A stretch of 25,248 nt of DNA. Source: a virus. Its lineage: Duplodnaviria; Heunggongvirae; Uroviricota; Caudoviricetes. A model generated the notes under the pieces. It ran no database searches, had not been told where the DNA came from, and saw only the letters and a list, made by a program, of their open reading frames with translations. The position numbers and the translations under genes were made by a program. Shown here in pieces: positions 12,227 to 16,287 of the stretch. Within the stretch, counting starts at the first letter, position 1. Every line of letters starts with the position of its first letter. The DNA lies in the IMG/VR virus record IMGVR_UViG_2700989400_000006, positions 1-25,248 of that record; one strand, 5' to 3'.

Positions 12227-12382
12227 TTACTCCTCAGGTTCGTAAGCTGTGAAGACAGCGACCTCCGTCTGGCCGGTTCGGATTCGTACCTCGCAGAGGT
12301 CTTTCCTCGTTACCAGTGCCGTCACTATGACGGTTAAACAGATGACGATCAGGGCGATTAACATCGCCTTTTGCTGCTTCAT
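12227..12382 (-). CDS. hokD: Hok/Gef-family type I toxin (51 aa)
   Basis: MKQQKAMLIALIVICLTVIVTALVTRKDLCEVRIRTGQTEVAVFTAYEPEE matches my recollection of E. coli HokD (RelF). A perfect 9-bp hairpin (12198-12219) follows the stop, consistent with the folded 3' end of hok-type mRNAs. Confidence 0.9.
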   Translation of the reverse strand: MKQQKAMLIALIVICLTVIVTALVTRKDLCEVRIRTGQTEVAVFTAYEPEE

Positions 12383-12439
12383 AGCCTGCTTCTCCTTGCC
12401 TTTCGGCACGTAAGAGGCTAACCTAGATTTGCCGTTCAT
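12227..12439 (-). CDS. Mok-like upstream reading frame containing hok (70 aa, same frame)
   Basis: In-frame N-terminal extension MNGKSRLASYVPKGKEKQA preceding the Hok methionine, as in chromosomal mokC/hokC pairs (from memory). Confidence 0.5.
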   Translation of the reverse strand: MNGKSRLASYVPKGKEKQAMKQQKAMLIALIVICLTVIVTALVTRKDLCEVRIRTGQTEVAVFTAYEPEE

Positions 12440-12949
12440 AGATTGAGCCTCAGATTAATGTTAAACGTCTTGCAGGACGCGTAATGTTAACTGGGGCTTT
12501 TCTCTATCTGCCTTTGGTGTTCATGCCTGAGGCAGATAGCCTCAAGCACCCGCAGCAATTCTACTTAACTCCCGTCACCTCGCCAATATAAAATCAATCA
12601 GAAAGGCGATCCGTAAGAACAACAGCAAGACAATAAATTGCCATTACAGCCGCAATAGCTAGCGCACATTTGAGAACCAGCACGACAACCTCCTGTATTG
12701 GACGTACACCAATTCTGATAAATATGAGGCTGTCTCATCATTGATTCAATATAACTATTGGGTATAGTTTCTGTGATTTTGTTCTGTAGAAATGGAACAC
12801 AACAACCAGTCACCACCAGCACTTCTTTAAATACGCCAAGTCCGACGCAAGCTAACCTTCTAGTCCGCTTTGAGCGAAGAGCGGACATTGCTAACAGCAT
12901 CCTGTGTGAATCATTACGATCAAATCGATGACTAGATAAGTACAAACCG

Positions 12950-12978
12950 GAAAAGGGGCCTACTGACGAAGTAGGCCT
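12950..12978 (-). terminator. Intrinsic terminator of the three-gene cassette
   Basis: Minus-strand RNA: GGCCUACU-UCGUC-AGUAGGCC (perfect 8-bp stem) followed by CCUUUUCCGGUUU, starting 17 nt after the stop of the last cassette gene. Confidence 0.6.
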
Positions 12979-12994
12979 GAGTTCCTTATATATT

Positions 12995-13651
12995 TCACAA
13001 AATTCTGAGAGTTTCTAAGATGGATAAAAGTGTTGGAAGCTGACTCTCTCTCACACGGAATCTACCCGTCCTAGATAATTCCGTTTCAATTCCGTTAACG
13101 AAGAAATGTACGGAATCAAAAACGGCCGAACTATTCATGTATTTATTCTGATAAATTTCTTGGAGATTCTTTGAGCTTACTATTTTTGTCTTTGCTAAAG
13201 TAAAAGGATCAACAGAGATATTAGATAGAGACATGGATTTTATCTTGATGTCAAAGCCCTCAGAAAGACCATTTACAATTTTTCTCAGATCAAATTCTAC
13301 TGGTCTCAAGCCACTATCTTCACCAAATAGTTTTTGCACCATAGTATAAGGCACTTTCATACTTAATGGAGGATTAGTGGCATATAGTATGATTTTTTTC
13401 CCTTGTCTGACGCCAAAGTCCACATTTAAGTAAGTTGCTATTTCAACCTCTGAACGCTCGCCATTAGCATATTCTAAGCTTTGCTTGCTAATGCTTCTCA
13501 TGGTAAATCTTAGTTTAAGCACTTCAGAGTTATTAATGATTTGAAAACCATATCCTTTATCTTCATCATAGAGGTTGTCATTTACTTTATGTAATAACTC
13601 ACTTTTAGTTATATCCTTTTCTGCTTTATAAATTTTTACCTTTATCATCAT
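12995..13651 (-). CDS. Cassette gene C: uncharacterized protein (~218 aa), third gene of the AT-rich three-gene operon
   Basis: Start chosen at ATG 13651 (MMIKVKIYKAEKD...) with AGGAGG 6 nt upstream, overlapping the TGA of gene B as ATGA; the track start 13678 is TTG. No motif I recognise. Confidence 0.75.
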   Translation of the reverse strand: MMIKVKIYKAEKDITKSELLHKVNDNLYDEDKGYGFQIINNSEVLKLRFTMRSISKQSLEYANGERSEVEIATYLNVDFGVRQGKKIILYATNPPLSMKVPYTMVQKLFGEDSGLRPVEFDLRKIVNGLSEGFDIKIKSMSLSNISVDPFTLAKTKIVSSKNLQEIYQNKYMNSSAVFDSVHFFVNGIETELSRTGRFRVRESQLPTLLSILETLRIL

Positions 13652-14895
13652 CCAGCCTCCTGATTCAAAGTCTCGCAAGACATAGCTTTCGTTACTGGGT
13701 ATCGCTTGGTATGCTCTTCGATAATAAAGTCATTAATCAAAAATATTTTATCTTCTAATTGTTTCATGACTTGATCAAAGTCTGCGTCACTGAGTTTTTC
13801 TCTCTCTGCGGATGCAGAGTTGCTTTCTTTGTATAACGCTCTGAATTTTATATTTTTCCCAAGATATTTATCATCGAAACTAAGTTCAAAAGTTATAGTA
13901 TGATTCTTAACTACTGAGGAAAATGACTTCCATCGAATTAAGCTTCGATAAAACCCATCACTGCACAGTTCCTTAATTTGAGGTGCGTTCACTAATGATA
14001 GGCCATCATACGCGGCATTGTTAATGTTAAAAGTTAGGTTTTCATCATCGTCAGATGCCATTTCCTGATTATTAATGTCATCATCATTTTCGTTATCTGT
14101 AGAAGGTGAAATCTTGTTTAATAACTCTTGTGTTTCTTCGTTATTATTTCCTTCGAGATTATCTCCATTAATATCCAGAGATGTTTTTATTCTGCTTACT
14201 CTAACCTTTTCAAGACCAGCATATTCAAGTCCTGTTTTTTTATAATTTCCATCAAAATCATAAAGATGAACAGCAAAAATATTCCTAAGATCTGTATCAA
14301 CGATACTTGATAAATCTATTTCGTTGACAACTATGTTGTTACAAACTGTTGATGAATATGTATCAATTATTTGCTTGAGAATTTCTGAAATGCGTGGCGT
14401 ATAGTTATATCTTACTGAAACATATCCTTTTTTTACTATAAAAACTATACTCCCACTGTACAATTTTTTCTGCTGAAACTTACCCCTTCTAAAATCAAAC
14501 TCAGTATAATCAATAGATATATGATAGGTTTGCAAGCCTGAGTAATGATCAATTTTCTCATGCCCTAGCAACTTGGGTCTATTTTCTTTCACTTTGTTTA
14601 CAACGTCATAGAGTTTCTCTATATCAAATTCTTCATATATACGTTTTACTGAGAAGACGTCTTGGCTGGGTTTGGTTGCCAGTTTATCTTGTACTTCTCT
14701 GATGTGATTATATGAAAATGGCAGGTCTGATAATTTTTCTATCAATACCTCTTTTGATAAGTTAGATGGGAAAATTATCCCTCTATTGAAGGCGATTTTC
14801 CTTAATGTAACATCTGTGATTTTTGCACTGTTAGAGTGGAGGGCGGTATAAATGTCACTTTCGTTTGAAAACAACGTAGCTTGATATTTATTCAT
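13648..14895 (-). CDS. Cassette gene B: uncharacterized protein (415 aa) with a central acidic low-complexity linker
   Basis: ATG 14895 lies 10 nt after the gene A stop with AGGAG in between. Residues ~240-285 (NNNEETQELLNKISPSTDNENDDDINNQEMASDDDENL) form an Asn/Asp/Glu-rich linker between two halves. No Walker A/B or other motif I recognise. Confidence 0.8.
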   Translation of the reverse strand: MNKYQATLFSNESDIYTALHSNSAKITDVTLRKIAFNRGIIFPSNLSKEVLIEKLSDLPFSYNHIREVQDKLATKPSQDVFSVKRIYEEFDIEKLYDVVNKVKENRPKLLGHEKIDHYSGLQTYHISIDYTEFDFRRGKFQQKKLYSGSIVFIVKKGYVSVRYNYTPRISEILKQIIDTYSSTVCNNIVVNEIDLSSIVDTDLRNIFAVHLYDFDGNYKKTGLEYAGLEKVRVSRIKTSLDINGDNLEGNNNEETQELLNKISPSTDNENDDDINNQEMASDDDENLTFNINNAAYDGLSLVNAPQIKELCSDGFYRSLIRWKSFSSVVKNHTITFELSFDDKYLGKNIKFRALYKESNSASAEREKLSDADFDQVMKQLEDKIFLINDFIIEEHTKRYPVTKAMSCETLNQEAG

Positions 14896-14905
14896 GTCAT
14901 ACTCC

Positions 14906-15997
14906 TTATGAAAAGTGACATTTTCTATTCACCTGCTTGCTGGCAACCTGGTACTCAAATATAGATAGCTTTTGATTAACAAAAGGAATGGATACTATTT
15001 TTTCCTTTAACGTTTCTATATGAGATTGAGTGAAAGAATATATTCCTATGTAATCATTAATGGCGGATTGCAAATGAATGCTTGAGTGTGATGAGAACGG
15101 AGTTATAACAAATATTTTGTTAAATTGATTGAGTAATTGATAGTTAAATATATACTCTAAAAGAAATATAAAGTGGTTACTGGAATCAATCTCTTCCTTC
15201 CAGAATATATTCAATATTTTATTTCTTATTCTATCGCCACCATCATTTCTAATATATTCGTGTTCATATGAGTAAAAAATCATCCCAGATGTTATCATTT
15301 CAATTGTGGCTGGAAGGATTTTCCCTTTCGTTGCTATTTTATTATGTTTGTCAGGGTAAAAATATGTACAGTTCTCTATCTCAGGAATTTTTTGCCATAA
15401 CATATTTGTTTCTTGTGTTACTTTGTCAGTAATTCCTCTTCTAGTCTCGATGTGTTCTGTAACATCTAGTAAAAATCTGATCATAGTTGGGTCAAAAACG
15501 GCAATCACAGAGTTCTCTGGAAAATCATAACTTGCTGTGGCTGCTCCATTTAATTTCTCAATTAAATCAGAGTCATATTTATTGTCATGATTATATATAA
15601 AAAGTAGGCCGTTAACTTGATATTTCTCATTTGTGCTGTCAACAAATAGACGCCGCCACTCAGGACTTCTTGGCGCGCAAGCTACCTGTTGTGATAAACT
15701 TCGTACAGTGTTCAATATTGATTTTGTACCGTCAAGCGTGCTGGCACAATAAGATTTTAAATCTGTTTGTATATACTGAGTTATATCTGAATAAGGATCT
15801 TTATATTTGAAGACTACATCCGTAGGATGAGTTTTTTTTGGGTTTTCAGATAAAAGTTGTTTAGCGTTTAGATGAGATCTCAAACAACAGTCCCAACTTA
15901 TATCCGTTGTATTTTGGGTTTTCCAGCCTAACTCATCAAAAATTCTACTGGAAATGATACCTGCAATCTCATCAATATTCTTAGTTTCGCCGCCCAC
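14906..15997 (-). CDS. Cassette gene A: uncharacterized protein (363 aa), first gene of the operon
   Basis: GTG start at 15997 preceded by GGAGGA; no in-frame ATG upstream. The N-terminal ~90 aa carry a pattern compatible with, but not diagnostic of, a PD-(D/E)xK nuclease core (FDE ... HPTDVVF ... IQTDLK). Confidence 0.7.
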   Translation of the reverse strand: MGGETKNIDEIAGIISSRIFDELGWKTQNTTDISWDCCLRSHLNAKQLLSENPKKTHPTDVVFKYKDPYSDITQYIQTDLKSYCASTLDGTKSILNTVRSLSQQVACAPRSPEWRRLFVDSTNEKYQVNGLLFIYNHDNKYDSDLIEKLNGAATASYDFPENSVIAVFDPTMIRFLLDVTEHIETRRGITDKVTQETNMLWQKIPEIENCTYFYPDKHNKIATKGKILPATIEMITSGMIFYSYEHEYIRNDGGDRIRNKILNIFWKEEIDSSNHFIFLLEYIFNYQLLNQFNKIFVITPFSSHSSIHLQSAINDYIGIYSFTQSHIETLKEKIVSIPFVNQKLSIFEYQVASKQVNRKCHFS

Positions 15998-16287
15998 GCT
16001 TCCTCCATAGTTCGTTGTTTTATCTAGTGAAGATCTGATTCATGGTTTTCCAAGCCCATGCGCAAAACAATTAATCAAGTAAGAATAATCTTAATCAATT
16101 TAATCTTTTTTATTTGAATCATCAAGAGCCCCATTACTGATAGGCATCAGTTGGTGGTATCTCTGCTCAAGCTTCAGTAAAATCTGGTTTGCTACTTCCG
16201 CTCCTGGCACAAAGCGGACAACCGCGCTAGCTCTACCCTGTGCCACAAAATGTCAATTTGCATCTGAACTAATGCACTTTAATCTCG

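What the first reader, a model, noticed from the sequence alone, without database searches (positions are those of the whole stretch)
12995..13651. Cassette gene C: small soluble protein translationally coupled to gene B
The ATGA stop-start overlap with a consensus AGGAGG suggests the two products are made in fixed stoichiometry and may form a complex. The protein has no hydrophobic segment and no motif I recognise. The track start (TTG at 13678) is probably wrong.
Basis: seen in the sequence. Interest (0 to 1): 0.45.

Follow-up and report, generated by a model that had tools for sequence, protein, structure and literature searches.

The report
RdgC-fold third subunit of 3HP defence
Gene C is a real, translationally coupled gene for the third protein (Hp3 type) of a mobile three-gene anti-phage cassette of the known "3HP" kind, and its predicted shape, shared with its upstream partner, is that of the DNA-encircling protein RdgC, which suggests how this poorly understood system may sense DNA.

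Summary
On the minus strand, gene B ends at TGA 13650-13648, an ATG at 13651 gives the ATGA overlap, and AGGAGG lies at 13661-13656. The upstream TTG 13678 has no ribosome-binding site. One correction: the conserved start is the next ATG, 13648 (MIKVK..., 217 aa, TGATG overlap). ATG 13651 is explained by one base difference (TAA versus TGA stop) from the nearest sibling.

Gene C is not an orphan. A, B and C match the PADLOC models Hp1, Hp2 and Hp3 of the 3HP anti-phage system (Rousset 2022; mechanism unknown) as distant relatives. They form a 3.36-kb cassette (12863-16219) found in a Qin-like prophage, an ICE-like island and plasmids.

Best reading, inferred and not shown: B and C pair into an RdgC-like, pseudo-symmetric DNA clamp that controls nuclease A. 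It is a divergent member of a known kind, of moderate interest.

The parts
16197..16219 (-). Left boundary motif of the cassette: the palindrome GTCCGCTTTGTGCCAGGAGCGGA.
   Evidence: Homology to the ICE-like copy (L002) and the IncR plasmid copy (L017) begins here. The gapped motif has 3 hits at two sites in the window against 0 expected. It is also present at the same site in loci L001, L002, L017 and L024.
15998..16196 (-). Upstream leader of the cassette. It presumably holds the cassette's own promoter, which was not identified.
   Evidence: It travels with the three genes in every context examined. The consensus scan found no convincing sigma-70 site on this strand. A GGAGGA lies just before the GTG start of A.
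14906..15997 (-). Gene A, Hp1 type: a predicted PD-(D/E)XK nuclease of the GAPS4 domain family (363 aa, GTG start).
   Evidence: PADLOC Hp1 at 7.6e-41. All homologues carry precomputed PF26115 PDDEXK_GAPS4. H57-P58-x-D60 and D79-L80-K81-S82-Y83 are invariant in 40 sequences.
13648..14895 (-). Gene B, Hp2 type (415 aa). It has N-terminal helices (12-72), an RdgC-like body in two halves (81-235 and 286-398), and a disordered acidic linker (243-281).
13656..13661 (-). Shine-Dalgarno AGGAGG for gene C, inside the last codons of B.
   Evidence: Sequence. Duplex with the anti-SD is -10.3 kcal/mol. An SD-like element at this position is conserved in 19 loci.
12995..13651 (-). Gene C, Hp3 type. It gives 218 aa from ATG 13651 (ATGA overlap) or 217 aa from the conserved ATG 13648 (TGATG overlap). 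The product is a basic, soluble protein of two half-domains with the RdgC/CENP-L fold.
12951..12977 (-). Terminator-like hairpin after C: an 8-bp GGCCUACU/AGUAGGCC stem followed by CCUUUU.
   Evidence: RNA fold of 12940-12994 gives -17.7 kcal/mol. The consensus scan did not list it as a terminator, and its tail has only four consecutive U. It lies inside the mobile unit.
12863..12886 (-). Right boundary motif of the cassette: the palindrome GTCCGCTCTTCGCTCAAAGCGGAC.
   Evidence: Homology to L002 and L017 ends at 12863. The cassette-free genome L024 resumes homology at 12878.

Best explanation
Gene C encodes the Hp3-type third subunit of a three-gene anti-phage cassette of the 3HP kind. The cassette is a 3.36-kb mobile unit inserted between the replication genes and hokD of a Qin-like lambdoid prophage.

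Shown or directly predicted here:
- C is a real gene under purifying selection. It starts at the tandem ATGs 13651/13648, of which the conserved one is 13648. Its ribosome-binding site lies inside the end of B, so it is translated in step with B.
- Its product is a 25-kDa basic soluble protein whose confident model has the two-half-domain RdgC/CENP-L (Iml3) fold.
- B has the same fold, plus an N-terminal helical domain and an acidic linker.
- A is a PD-(D/E)XK nuclease of the GAPS4 domain family with an intact catalytic motif.

Inferred:
- B and C pair side by side through their beta-sheets, as RdgC and RexA homodimers and the Iml3-Chl4 heterodimer do. They would form a pseudo-symmetric basic clamp or horseshoe around DNA.
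- This clamp would be the DNA-sensing part of the system and would hold or license nuclease A. The model is the two-gene GAPS4 system, where a ring of two GAPS4b subunits carries two GAPS4a nucleases and the complex degrades DNA non-selectively once DNA breaks appear.
- Translational coupling would keep B and C equimolar for a 1:1 heterodimer.
- The trigger (DNA ends, breaks or a phage replication intermediate) and the outcome (degradation of phage and host DNA, abortive infection) are guesses by analogy.
For: Family and system:
- PADLOC Hp1, Hp2 and Hp3 hit A, B and C in that order.
- Canonical 3HP genes of P2-like elements score 1e-158 to 1e-248 on the same models.
- DefenseFinder-style notes 'Rst_3HP__Hp1/2/3' sit on a homologous Vibrio phage locus.
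- Rousset 2022 showed that a three-gene, domain-less P2-hotspot system protects against P1; the name 3HP is cited to that paper.

Synteny:
- Every A or C homologue locus examined has the same three genes in the same order.

Mobility:
- The cassette has identical boundaries in a prophage, an ICE-like island and an IncR plasmid.
- It is present in 11 of 5426 complete E. coli genomes. A copy of gene A at 90% identity or more is on 15 plasmids.

Start and coupling.

Fold:
- An independent depositor annotated the third gene of Pseudomonas phage 54-4 as 'RdgC-like'.

Dimerisation and DNA binding as properties of the fold: PMC11077077.

Nuclease:
- PF26115 PDDEXK_GAPS4 on all A homologues.
- Invariant HPxD...DLK motif, matching the HGxD-SxK site whose D59A mutation kills GAPS4.

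GAPS4 ring architecture and DNA-break trigger: bioRxiv 10.1101/2025.09.07.674715.

Charge: C has pI 9.2, and B carries an acidic linker.
Against:
- B and C show no detectable sequence similarity to each other (hhalign probability 0.5%) or to the RdgC Pfam model. The shared fold rests on AF2 models, and B's model is only moderately confident (pLDDT 76, pTM 0.69).
- C is about 85 residues shorter than RdgC. It may lack the tip (finger) domain that closes the RdgC ring; this was not resolved.
- Homology between B and GAPS4b was not tested because no GAPS4b sequence was available. The GAPS4 analogy therefore rests on the shared nuclease domain, on similar subunit sizes and on the published description of a ring.
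- GAPS4 works with a homodimeric ring and no third protein, so C could have a different role.
- The window's proteins are only 22-33% identical to canonical 3HP, and their anti-phage activity is untested.
- The only published phenotype for 3HP is protection against P1. Its mechanism is unknown.
Confidence: 0.55

Rival explanations
1. C acts as its own homodimer, as RdgC and RexA do, while B forms a GAPS4b-like homodimeric ring that carries nuclease A. C would then be a separate module. It might be an inhibitor or gatekeeper that occupies DNA or the nuclease until infection, or a second sensor that widens the trigger range.
For: RdgC and RexA are homodimers. GAPS4 needs only a nuclease plus a ring of two identical b subunits. 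B alone has the N-terminal helical domain that could dock A. C is the fastest-diverging of the three proteins among close relatives: A, B and C are 80, 70 and 58% identical to the Serratia copies.
Against: All loci examined keep C immediately after B, with overlap or a gap of at most 2 nt, which fits equimolar co-assembly best. The Iml3-Chl4 precedent is a large subunit with an N-terminal extension plus a small subunit of the same fold, and this mirrors B (415 aa) and C (217 aa).
Confidence: 0.25
2. C is an RdgC-like recombination modulator that serves the prophage itself, for example by damping RecA or SOS induction. On this view it is not part of a defence machine and merely travels with A and B.
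For: The best structural match is RdgC, a RecA antagonist. The canonical 3HP loci in P2-like elements lie next to a DinI-family RecA-binding gene.
Against: C is never found apart from A and B in the loci examined, which include plasmids, ICE-like islands and non-lambdoid phages. The profile search found only standalone Hp3-sized proteins. There is no sequence match to the RdgC family model. RdgC itself is a conserved chromosomal gene, not mobile cargo (my own knowledge).
Confidence: 0.07
3. The fold match is an artefact of a common alpha/beta (TBP-like or helix-grip) building block. On this view C is an adaptor or chaperone with no DNA-binding role.
Confidence: 0.08
4. Translation of C starts at the upstream TTG 13678 (227 aa), as in the annotation track.
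For: It is the first start codon of the open frame.
Against: There is no SD (-0.1 kcal/mol). The extension lies in B's coding sequence and is not conserved as protein. All but one aligned homologue and PGAP start at the MIKVK methionine(s).
Confidence: 0.03

Closest known systems
3HP anti-phage system (Hp1-Hp2-Hp3; Rousset et al. 2022, P2-like prophage hotspot; PADLOC PDLC03004-6; DefenseFinder 'Rst_3HP')
   Same: Three co-directional, tightly packed genes in the same order. Each protein matches the corresponding HMM and the same PHROGs as canonical members. The genes are carried as cargo of prophages and plasmids. Hp2/Hp3 overlap is also present in the canonical loci (14 nt).
   Different: Only 22% (C) to 33% (A) identity to the canonical proteins. 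The PADLOC Hp2 model covers only the N-terminal half of B. B is 40-55 residues longer, with an expanded acidic linker. This copy sits in a lambdoid (Qin-like) prophage between the replication genes and hokD rather than in the P2 hotspot. Activity of this subfamily is untested.
GAPS4 (GAPS4a nuclease + GAPS4b; Mahata et al. 2024/2025)
   Same: A carries the PDDEXK_GAPS4 domain (PF26115) with the equivalent H-x-x-D...x-K catalytic motif. GAPS4b is described as forming a ring that carries the nucleases on alpha-helical domains, which is what an RdgC-fold protein with an N-terminal helical domain (B) would be expected to do. Canonical Hp1+Hp2 (333+359 aa) is close in size to GAPS4a+b (80.4 kDa per a-b pair).
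   Different: GAPS4 has two genes, or one fused gene, and a 2:2 complex. Here there are always three genes, so the ring would be a heterodimer of two different RdgC-fold proteins. The motif is HPxD...DLK rather than HGxD...SxK. Homology of B or C to GAPS4b was not tested.
RdgC (E. coli recombination-associated DNA-binding ring, PDB 2OWL/2OWY)
   Different: No sequence-level relationship. C is about 85 residues shorter. RdgC is a chromosomal housekeeping homodimer that antagonises RecA and is not part of a nuclease operon.
Iml3-Chl4 / CENP-L-CENP-N kinetochore heterodimer
   Same: Same fold in both partners. One partner is large with an N-terminal extension and the other is small (about 220-245 aa). 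They join by a continuous beta-sheet and bind DNA on a basic inner face. Both rank among the top hits for both B and C.
   Different: It is a eukaryotic structural complex with no nuclease partner. The resemblance is structural analogy or very deep homology only.
Lambda RexA (RexAB exclusion system)
   Different: RexA's partner is the membrane protein RexB, not a nuclease. RexA is a homodimer. The similarity to C is much weaker than that of RdgC.

Membership tests
3HP defence system | Three adjacent co-directional genes in the order Hp1-Hp2-Hp3. | tested here: met
   A 14906-15997, B 13648-14895 and C 12995-13651 all lie on the minus strand. The A-B gap is 10 nt and B and C overlap by 1-4 nt. 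The same order holds in every related locus examined.
3HP defence system | Each protein matches its family model (PADLOC PDLC03004, 03005 and 03006). | tested here: met
   E = 7.6e-41, 9.6e-11 and 3.8e-11. The matches are weak compared with canonical members (1e-158 to 1e-248), and Hp2 matches only residues 8-213 of B. Full-length support comes from PHROGs 7059, 6531 and 5850. Whether PADLOC's or DefenseFinder's own coverage thresholds would call the system was not run.
3HP defence system | Protects bacteria against phage (P1 in the original test). | not testable with these tools
   Only the canonical P2-hotspot system was tested, by Rousset 2022. This subfamily has no experimental data that I could find.
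3HP defence system | Carried as accessory cargo of mobile elements. | tested here: met
   Low-GC island (30-36% against about 50% in the flanks). The same 3.36-kb unit occurs in a prophage, an ICE-like island and plasmids. An empty or alternative-cargo site exists in other E. coli.
RdgC family (Pfam RdgC) | Sequence match to the family model. | tested here: not met
   No Pfam hit at E <= 1 for C, or for eight other Hp3 proteins. No PDB sequence hit with the C profile.
RdgC family (Pfam RdgC) | RdgC three-dimensional fold (centre plus base domains). | tested here: met
RdgC family (Pfam RdgC) | Ring-shaped dimer that binds DNA non-specifically and has a tip (finger) domain. | not testable with these tools
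   No multimer prediction was available. C is shorter than RdgC, so the tip domain may be missing; this was not resolved.
GAPS4 | PD-(D/E)XK nuclease of the GAPS4a type with the conserved H-x-x-D ... x-K site. | tested here: met
   Precomputed PF26115 PDDEXK_GAPS4 on A homologues. H57, D60, D79 and K81 are invariant. The local Pfam copy lacks this model, hence no hit.
GAPS4 | Two-component architecture (GAPS4a + GAPS4b, adjacent or fused). | tested here: not met
   All loci have three genes. No two-gene or fused variant appeared among the relatives of A that were examined.
GAPS4 | Partner homologous to GAPS4b that forms a ring. | not tested
   The GAPS4b sequence (WP_055466294.1) was not obtainable with these tools. 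Only the published description of a ring is available.
RexAB exclusion system | An RdgC-fold sensor paired with the membrane protein RexB. | tested here: not met

The most novel reading that the evidence does not exclude
Hp2 and Hp3 form a bacterial counterpart of the CENP-N/CENP-L (Chl4/Iml3) pair. This would be a pseudo-symmetric heterodimeric RdgC-fold clamp that loads on free DNA ends or breaks and switches on a GAPS4-type nuclease. 3HP would then be the 'heterodimeric-ring' sister of GAPS4, with the conserved acidic linker of Hp2 acting as a DNA-mimicking plug that keeps the clamp closed until DNA displaces it.
Probability: 0.3. Interest if true: 0.65.

Novelty: new member of a known kind. 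Interest (0 to 1): 0.5.

Why it matters
3HP is a validated anti-phage system with no published mechanism, and its proteins are annotated 'hypothetical' in nearly all the records examined here. Three results turn it into a testable model. Hp2 and Hp3 are both predicted to have the RdgC/CENP-L fold. They are translationally coupled across the whole family. Hp1 carries the GAPS4 nuclease domain. Together these suggest a DNA-clamp sensor plus a nuclease effector, and they link two systems (3HP and GAPS4) that the papers examined here treat separately. The model also adds a third bacterial setting, after RdgC and RexA, for a fold otherwise known from eukaryotic kinetochores. For annotation, the work fixes the start codon of this gene and shows that the cassette is a discrete mobile unit shared by prophages, ICE-like islands and clinical Enterobacter and Klebsiella plasmids.

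Tried and rejected
- Pfam and NCBIfam scans of A, B and C found nothing meaningful. The local Pfam copy lacks PF26115.
- Sequence searches of PDB with the C profile and with A found no relatives, so no structure of this family has been solved.
- A profile-profile comparison of B against C found no similarity. The shared fold is visible only in the models.
- Pfam scans of eight other Hp3 proteins for an RdgC match were negative.
- I looked for two-gene (GAPS4-like) relatives of A among plasmid and phage hits; all were three-gene.
- The promoter/terminator consensus scan gave no more promoter-like sites than shuffled sequence and did not list the post-C hairpin, so the cassette's own promoter remains unidentified.
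- Searches for a published 3HP mechanism found only survey papers that list the system.
- Considered and rejected: a toxin-antitoxin pair (no small antitoxin-like partner; three conserved genes), a membrane effector (no hydrophobic segments), and a spurious ORF (dN/dS 0.12, 264 clusters, confident fold).

Full report
**1. The observation**

On the minus strand the sequence reads ...AAT CAG GAG GCT GGA TGA TGA TAA AGG.... Gene B (13648-14895, 415 aa) ends ...NQEAG with stop TGA at 13650-13648. An ATG at 13651-13649 overlaps it as ATGA. A second in-frame ATG follows at 13648-13646, and AGGAGG lies at 13661-13656. The frame stays open to the stop at 12997-12995. So the ATGA overlap and the consensus Shine-Dalgarno are real.

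The protein has no hydrophobic stretch: the maximum 19-residue Kyte-Doolittle mean is 0.72, and the pI is 9.2. It has no Pfam or NCBIfam match.

The AGGAGG hexamer by itself is not unusual, with 10 copies in the window against 7.0 expected. Its placement and conservation are what matter, as shown below.

**2. The start codon**

TTG 13678 is merely the first start codon of the open frame.
- It has no anti-SD pairing (-0.1 kcal/mol, against -10.3 for the ATG pair).
- It lies inside B's coding sequence.
- The nine residues it would add are absent from all but one of the 21 aligned homologues; the exception, P0039, has an unrelated extension of its own.
- RefSeq PGAP calls the gene from the ATG that overlaps B's stop (218 aa, WP_001625142.1).

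The invariant methionine of the family, however, is the second one (M-I/L/V-K-V-K...). It lies 7 nt from AGGAGG, against 4 nt for the first. The nearest single-Met relative reads caggaggctggaTAATGATAAAGG, where the window reads caggaggctggaTGATGATAAAGG (L018). A TAA/TGA stop difference therefore explains the extra upstream ATG. The conserved arrangement is a 1-nt TAATG/TGATG overlap, and the ATGA form is a by-product.

Both ATGs are within reach of a terminating ribosome, so a mixture of M- and MM- N-termini is possible. This is probably unimportant for function.

**3. The gene is real and belongs to a family**

The word-seeded search found 41 clusters (mostly 213-217 aa) in Enterobacterales and Vibrionaceae. 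An exhaustive profile search found 264 clusters at 50% identity, of which nearly all of the 150 listed are standalone proteins of about 210-237 aa. dN/dS against the closest unsaturated relative is 0.12.

**4. What the cassette is**

A, B and C hit PADLOC models Hp1 (7.6e-41), Hp2 (9.6e-11, N-terminal half only) and Hp3 (3.8e-11), in that order. They also hit PHROGs 7059, 6531 and 5850, all of unknown function.

These are the models of the '3HP' system.
- Rousset et al. [quoted passage not shown]
- The name 3HP is cited to that paper (PMC10855318).
- A Vibrio phage record carries the notes Rst_3HP__Hp1/2/3 on a homologous trio.
- Canonical trios in a P2-like Klebsiella phage and in an E. coli P2-like plasmid-prophage lie between the portal and replication genes. 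The Klebsiella trio scores 1e-158 to 1e-248 on the PADLOC models.

The window's proteins are only 22% (C) to 33% (A) identical to those, so this is a divergent subfamily.

Every locus I opened for a relative of A or C has the same three genes in the same order. The loci came from Serratia, Yersinia, Providencia, Photobacterium, several Vibrio, Pseudomonas (including a Pf-like filamentous phage), Ralstonia, Azospirillum and Aliarcobacter.

**5. Mobility and context**

The three genes sit in a low-GC island (30-36% against about 50%) in a Qin-like lambdoid prophage. The neighbours in the identical E. coli record are dicB, ydfD, a replisome organiser, a DUF977 gene, hokD, ydfU and ydfT.

The exact cassette occurs in 11 of 5426 complete E. 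coli genomes. One copy, at 97% identity, is in an ICE-like setting next to IS3 and trb genes. A copy of gene A at 90% identity or more is on 15 Enterobacter, Klebsiella and Citrobacter plasmids.

Homology between these contexts runs from window 12863 to 16219/16223. Both ends coincide with a palindromic motif GTCCGCT-N9-AGCGGA(C) that occurs nowhere else in the window, with 0 expected by chance. In other E. coli the same DUF977-hokD interval holds 233 bp of unrelated DNA, or a QueH gene. The unit therefore carries its own upstream leader and a terminator-like hairpin after C (-17.7 kcal/mol).

**6. Coupling is a family trait**

In 19 loci the B/C junction ranges from a 41-nt overlap to a 2-nt gap, always with a GGAG-type element within about 4-9 nt upstream of the C start. 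The A/B junction is also tight: a 10-nt gap here, with AAGGAG overlapping A's stop, and overlaps in several distant loci.

**7. Structure of C**

With the 41-sequence alignment, AlphaFold2 gives a confident model (pLDDT 92, pTM 0.83). It has two alpha/beta half-domains, at residues 1-110 and 120-217.
- Foldseek against PDB returns Iml3/CENP-L and RdgC at E about 1e-5 and probability 1.0.
- No solved structure is related by sequence, and no Pfam RdgC match exists for C or for eight other Hp3 proteins.
- Independently, the depositor of Pseudomonas phage 54-4 labelled its third gene 'RdgC-like'.

**8. Structure of B**

B and C therefore appear to be structural paralogues, although hhalign sees nothing between them.

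An acidic stretch at the same inter-domain position is present in most Hp2 proteins. It is expanded in this subfamily to a net charge of -13 to -19 per 40 residues.

**9. What the fold implies**

According to the RexA structure paper (PMC11077077):
- RdgC and RexA homodimers and the Iml3-Chl4 heterodimer all join through a continuous side-by-side beta-sheet.
- They bind DNA non-specifically on a basic pore or horseshoe.
- Chl4 is the larger partner with extra N-terminal parts, and Iml3 is the small one.

B (415 aa) and C (217 aa, pI 9.2) reproduce that size relationship.

**10. The effector**

All homologues of A carry precomputed Pfam PF26115, PDDEXK_GAPS4. An alignment of 40 sequences across the family keeps H57-P58-x-D60 and D79-L80-K81-S82-Y83 invariant.

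In GAPS4 (bioRxiv 10.1101/2025.09.07.674715):
- The nuclease GAPS4a has the motif HGxD-SxK, and its D59A mutant is inactive.
- GAPS4a and GAPS4b form a 2:2 complex (SEC-MALS 164 kDa).
- AlphaFold3 predicts two GAPS4b subunits forming a ring, with the nucleases docked on alpha-helical domains of GAPS4b.

That paper mentions neither RdgC nor 3HP.

**11. Most likely mechanism**

Shown or directly predicted: the gene, its start, the coupling, family membership, both folds, and the nuclease motif.

Inferred:
- B and C assemble 1:1 into an RdgC-like pseudo-symmetric DNA clamp.
- A docks on it, perhaps on B's N-terminal helices.
- DNA ends, breaks or a phage intermediate engage the clamp and release nuclease activity.
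- Translational coupling keeps the two ring halves equimolar.

My confidence by step is as follows:

| Claim | Probability |
|---|---|
| C is the Hp3-type component of a 3HP-type cassette | about 0.9 |
| C and B have the RdgC-type fold | about 0.85 |
| B-C heterodimer | about 0.5-0.6 |
| DNA-end or break trigger | about 0.3 |

The main rival is that B forms a GAPS4b-like homodimeric ring and C acts separately as a homodimeric regulator or second sensor.

**12. Limits**

- No multimer prediction could be run.
- B's model is of moderate confidence.
- The cassette's promoter was not identified.
- The anti-phage activity of this subfamily is unmeasured.

**13. Verdict**

The interpretation (coupled, probably complex-forming) is plausible and now has a concrete structural rationale.

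The gene is a divergent member of a known but mechanistically unexplained defence family. Interest is moderate: the gene itself is not a new kind of thing. However, I did not find the predicted pairing of two RdgC-fold proteins with a GAPS4-type nuclease described in the papers searched, and it is directly testable.

Noticed in passing
window 16197-16219 and 12863-12886; also L001, L002, L017, L024: The cassette is bounded on both sides by a 23-24 bp palindromic motif GTCCGCT-N9-AGCGGA(C). The window has 3 hits at two sites against 0 expected. Homology between the prophage, ICE-like and plasmid copies starts and stops at these motifs. A cassette-free E. coli has the left motif, 233 bp of other DNA and half of the right motif at the same site. 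The plasmid copy has an extra motif just downstream. How cargo is exchanged at these hairpins is unknown.
   Followed up: partly
window 12863-16219 site; H48-H51 in E. coli genomes: The interval between the DUF977 replication-region gene and hokD of Qin-like prophages is a variable cargo site. Depending on the genome it holds almost nothing, a QueH (epoxyqueuosine reductase) gene, or the 3HP-like cassette.
   Followed up: partly
window 14051-14170 (B residues 243-281) and Hp2 proteins of loci L003-L023: Hp2 proteins carry an acidic, predicted-disordered stretch between their two RdgC-like halves. It is short in canonical 3HP and expanded in this subfamily to a net charge of -13 to -19 per 40 residues. 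It could be a DNA-mimicking autoinhibitory segment; this is speculative.
   Followed up: partly
window 12227-12439 (-): A hokD-type type I toxin locus lies just downstream of the cassette. The 70-aa ORF contains the Hok peptide MKQQKAMLIALIVICLTVIVTALVTRKDLCEVRIRTGQTEVAVFTAYEPEE. The identical E. coli record annotates it as hokD.
   Followed up: no
window 12598-12945 (-): A 115-aa Cys-rich TTG ORF spans the right cassette boundary (12863). RefSeq does not annotate it in the identical record, and it is probably spurious.
   Followed up: no
window 12995-13003 versus L002 and L017: The window's C ends ...ILETLRIL, whereas the ICE-like and plasmid copies end ...ILETL. This is a three-residue C-terminal extension in the prophage copy.
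   Followed up: no
hit H6, NZ_CP070930.1 (E. coli 30COLEC): In one genome the cassette match is split into two pieces by an IS30-like ISApl1 transposase, so that copy is probably inactivated.
   Followed up: no
gene A, window 14906-15997 (residues C37, H42, C107, N136, D138): Besides the nuclease motif, Hp1 proteins keep C37, H42 and C107 invariant across 40 divergent sequences. This may be a metal-binding or structural site and is not discussed for GAPS4a.
   Followed up: no
L013 (Pseudomonas phage 54-4, Tubulavirales) and L019 (Yersinia island at smpB): 3HP-type trios also ride on a Pf-like filamentous phage of P. aeruginosa. In Yersinia enterocolitica the trio sits in an integrase island next to an Mrr-type restriction gene.
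   Followed up: no
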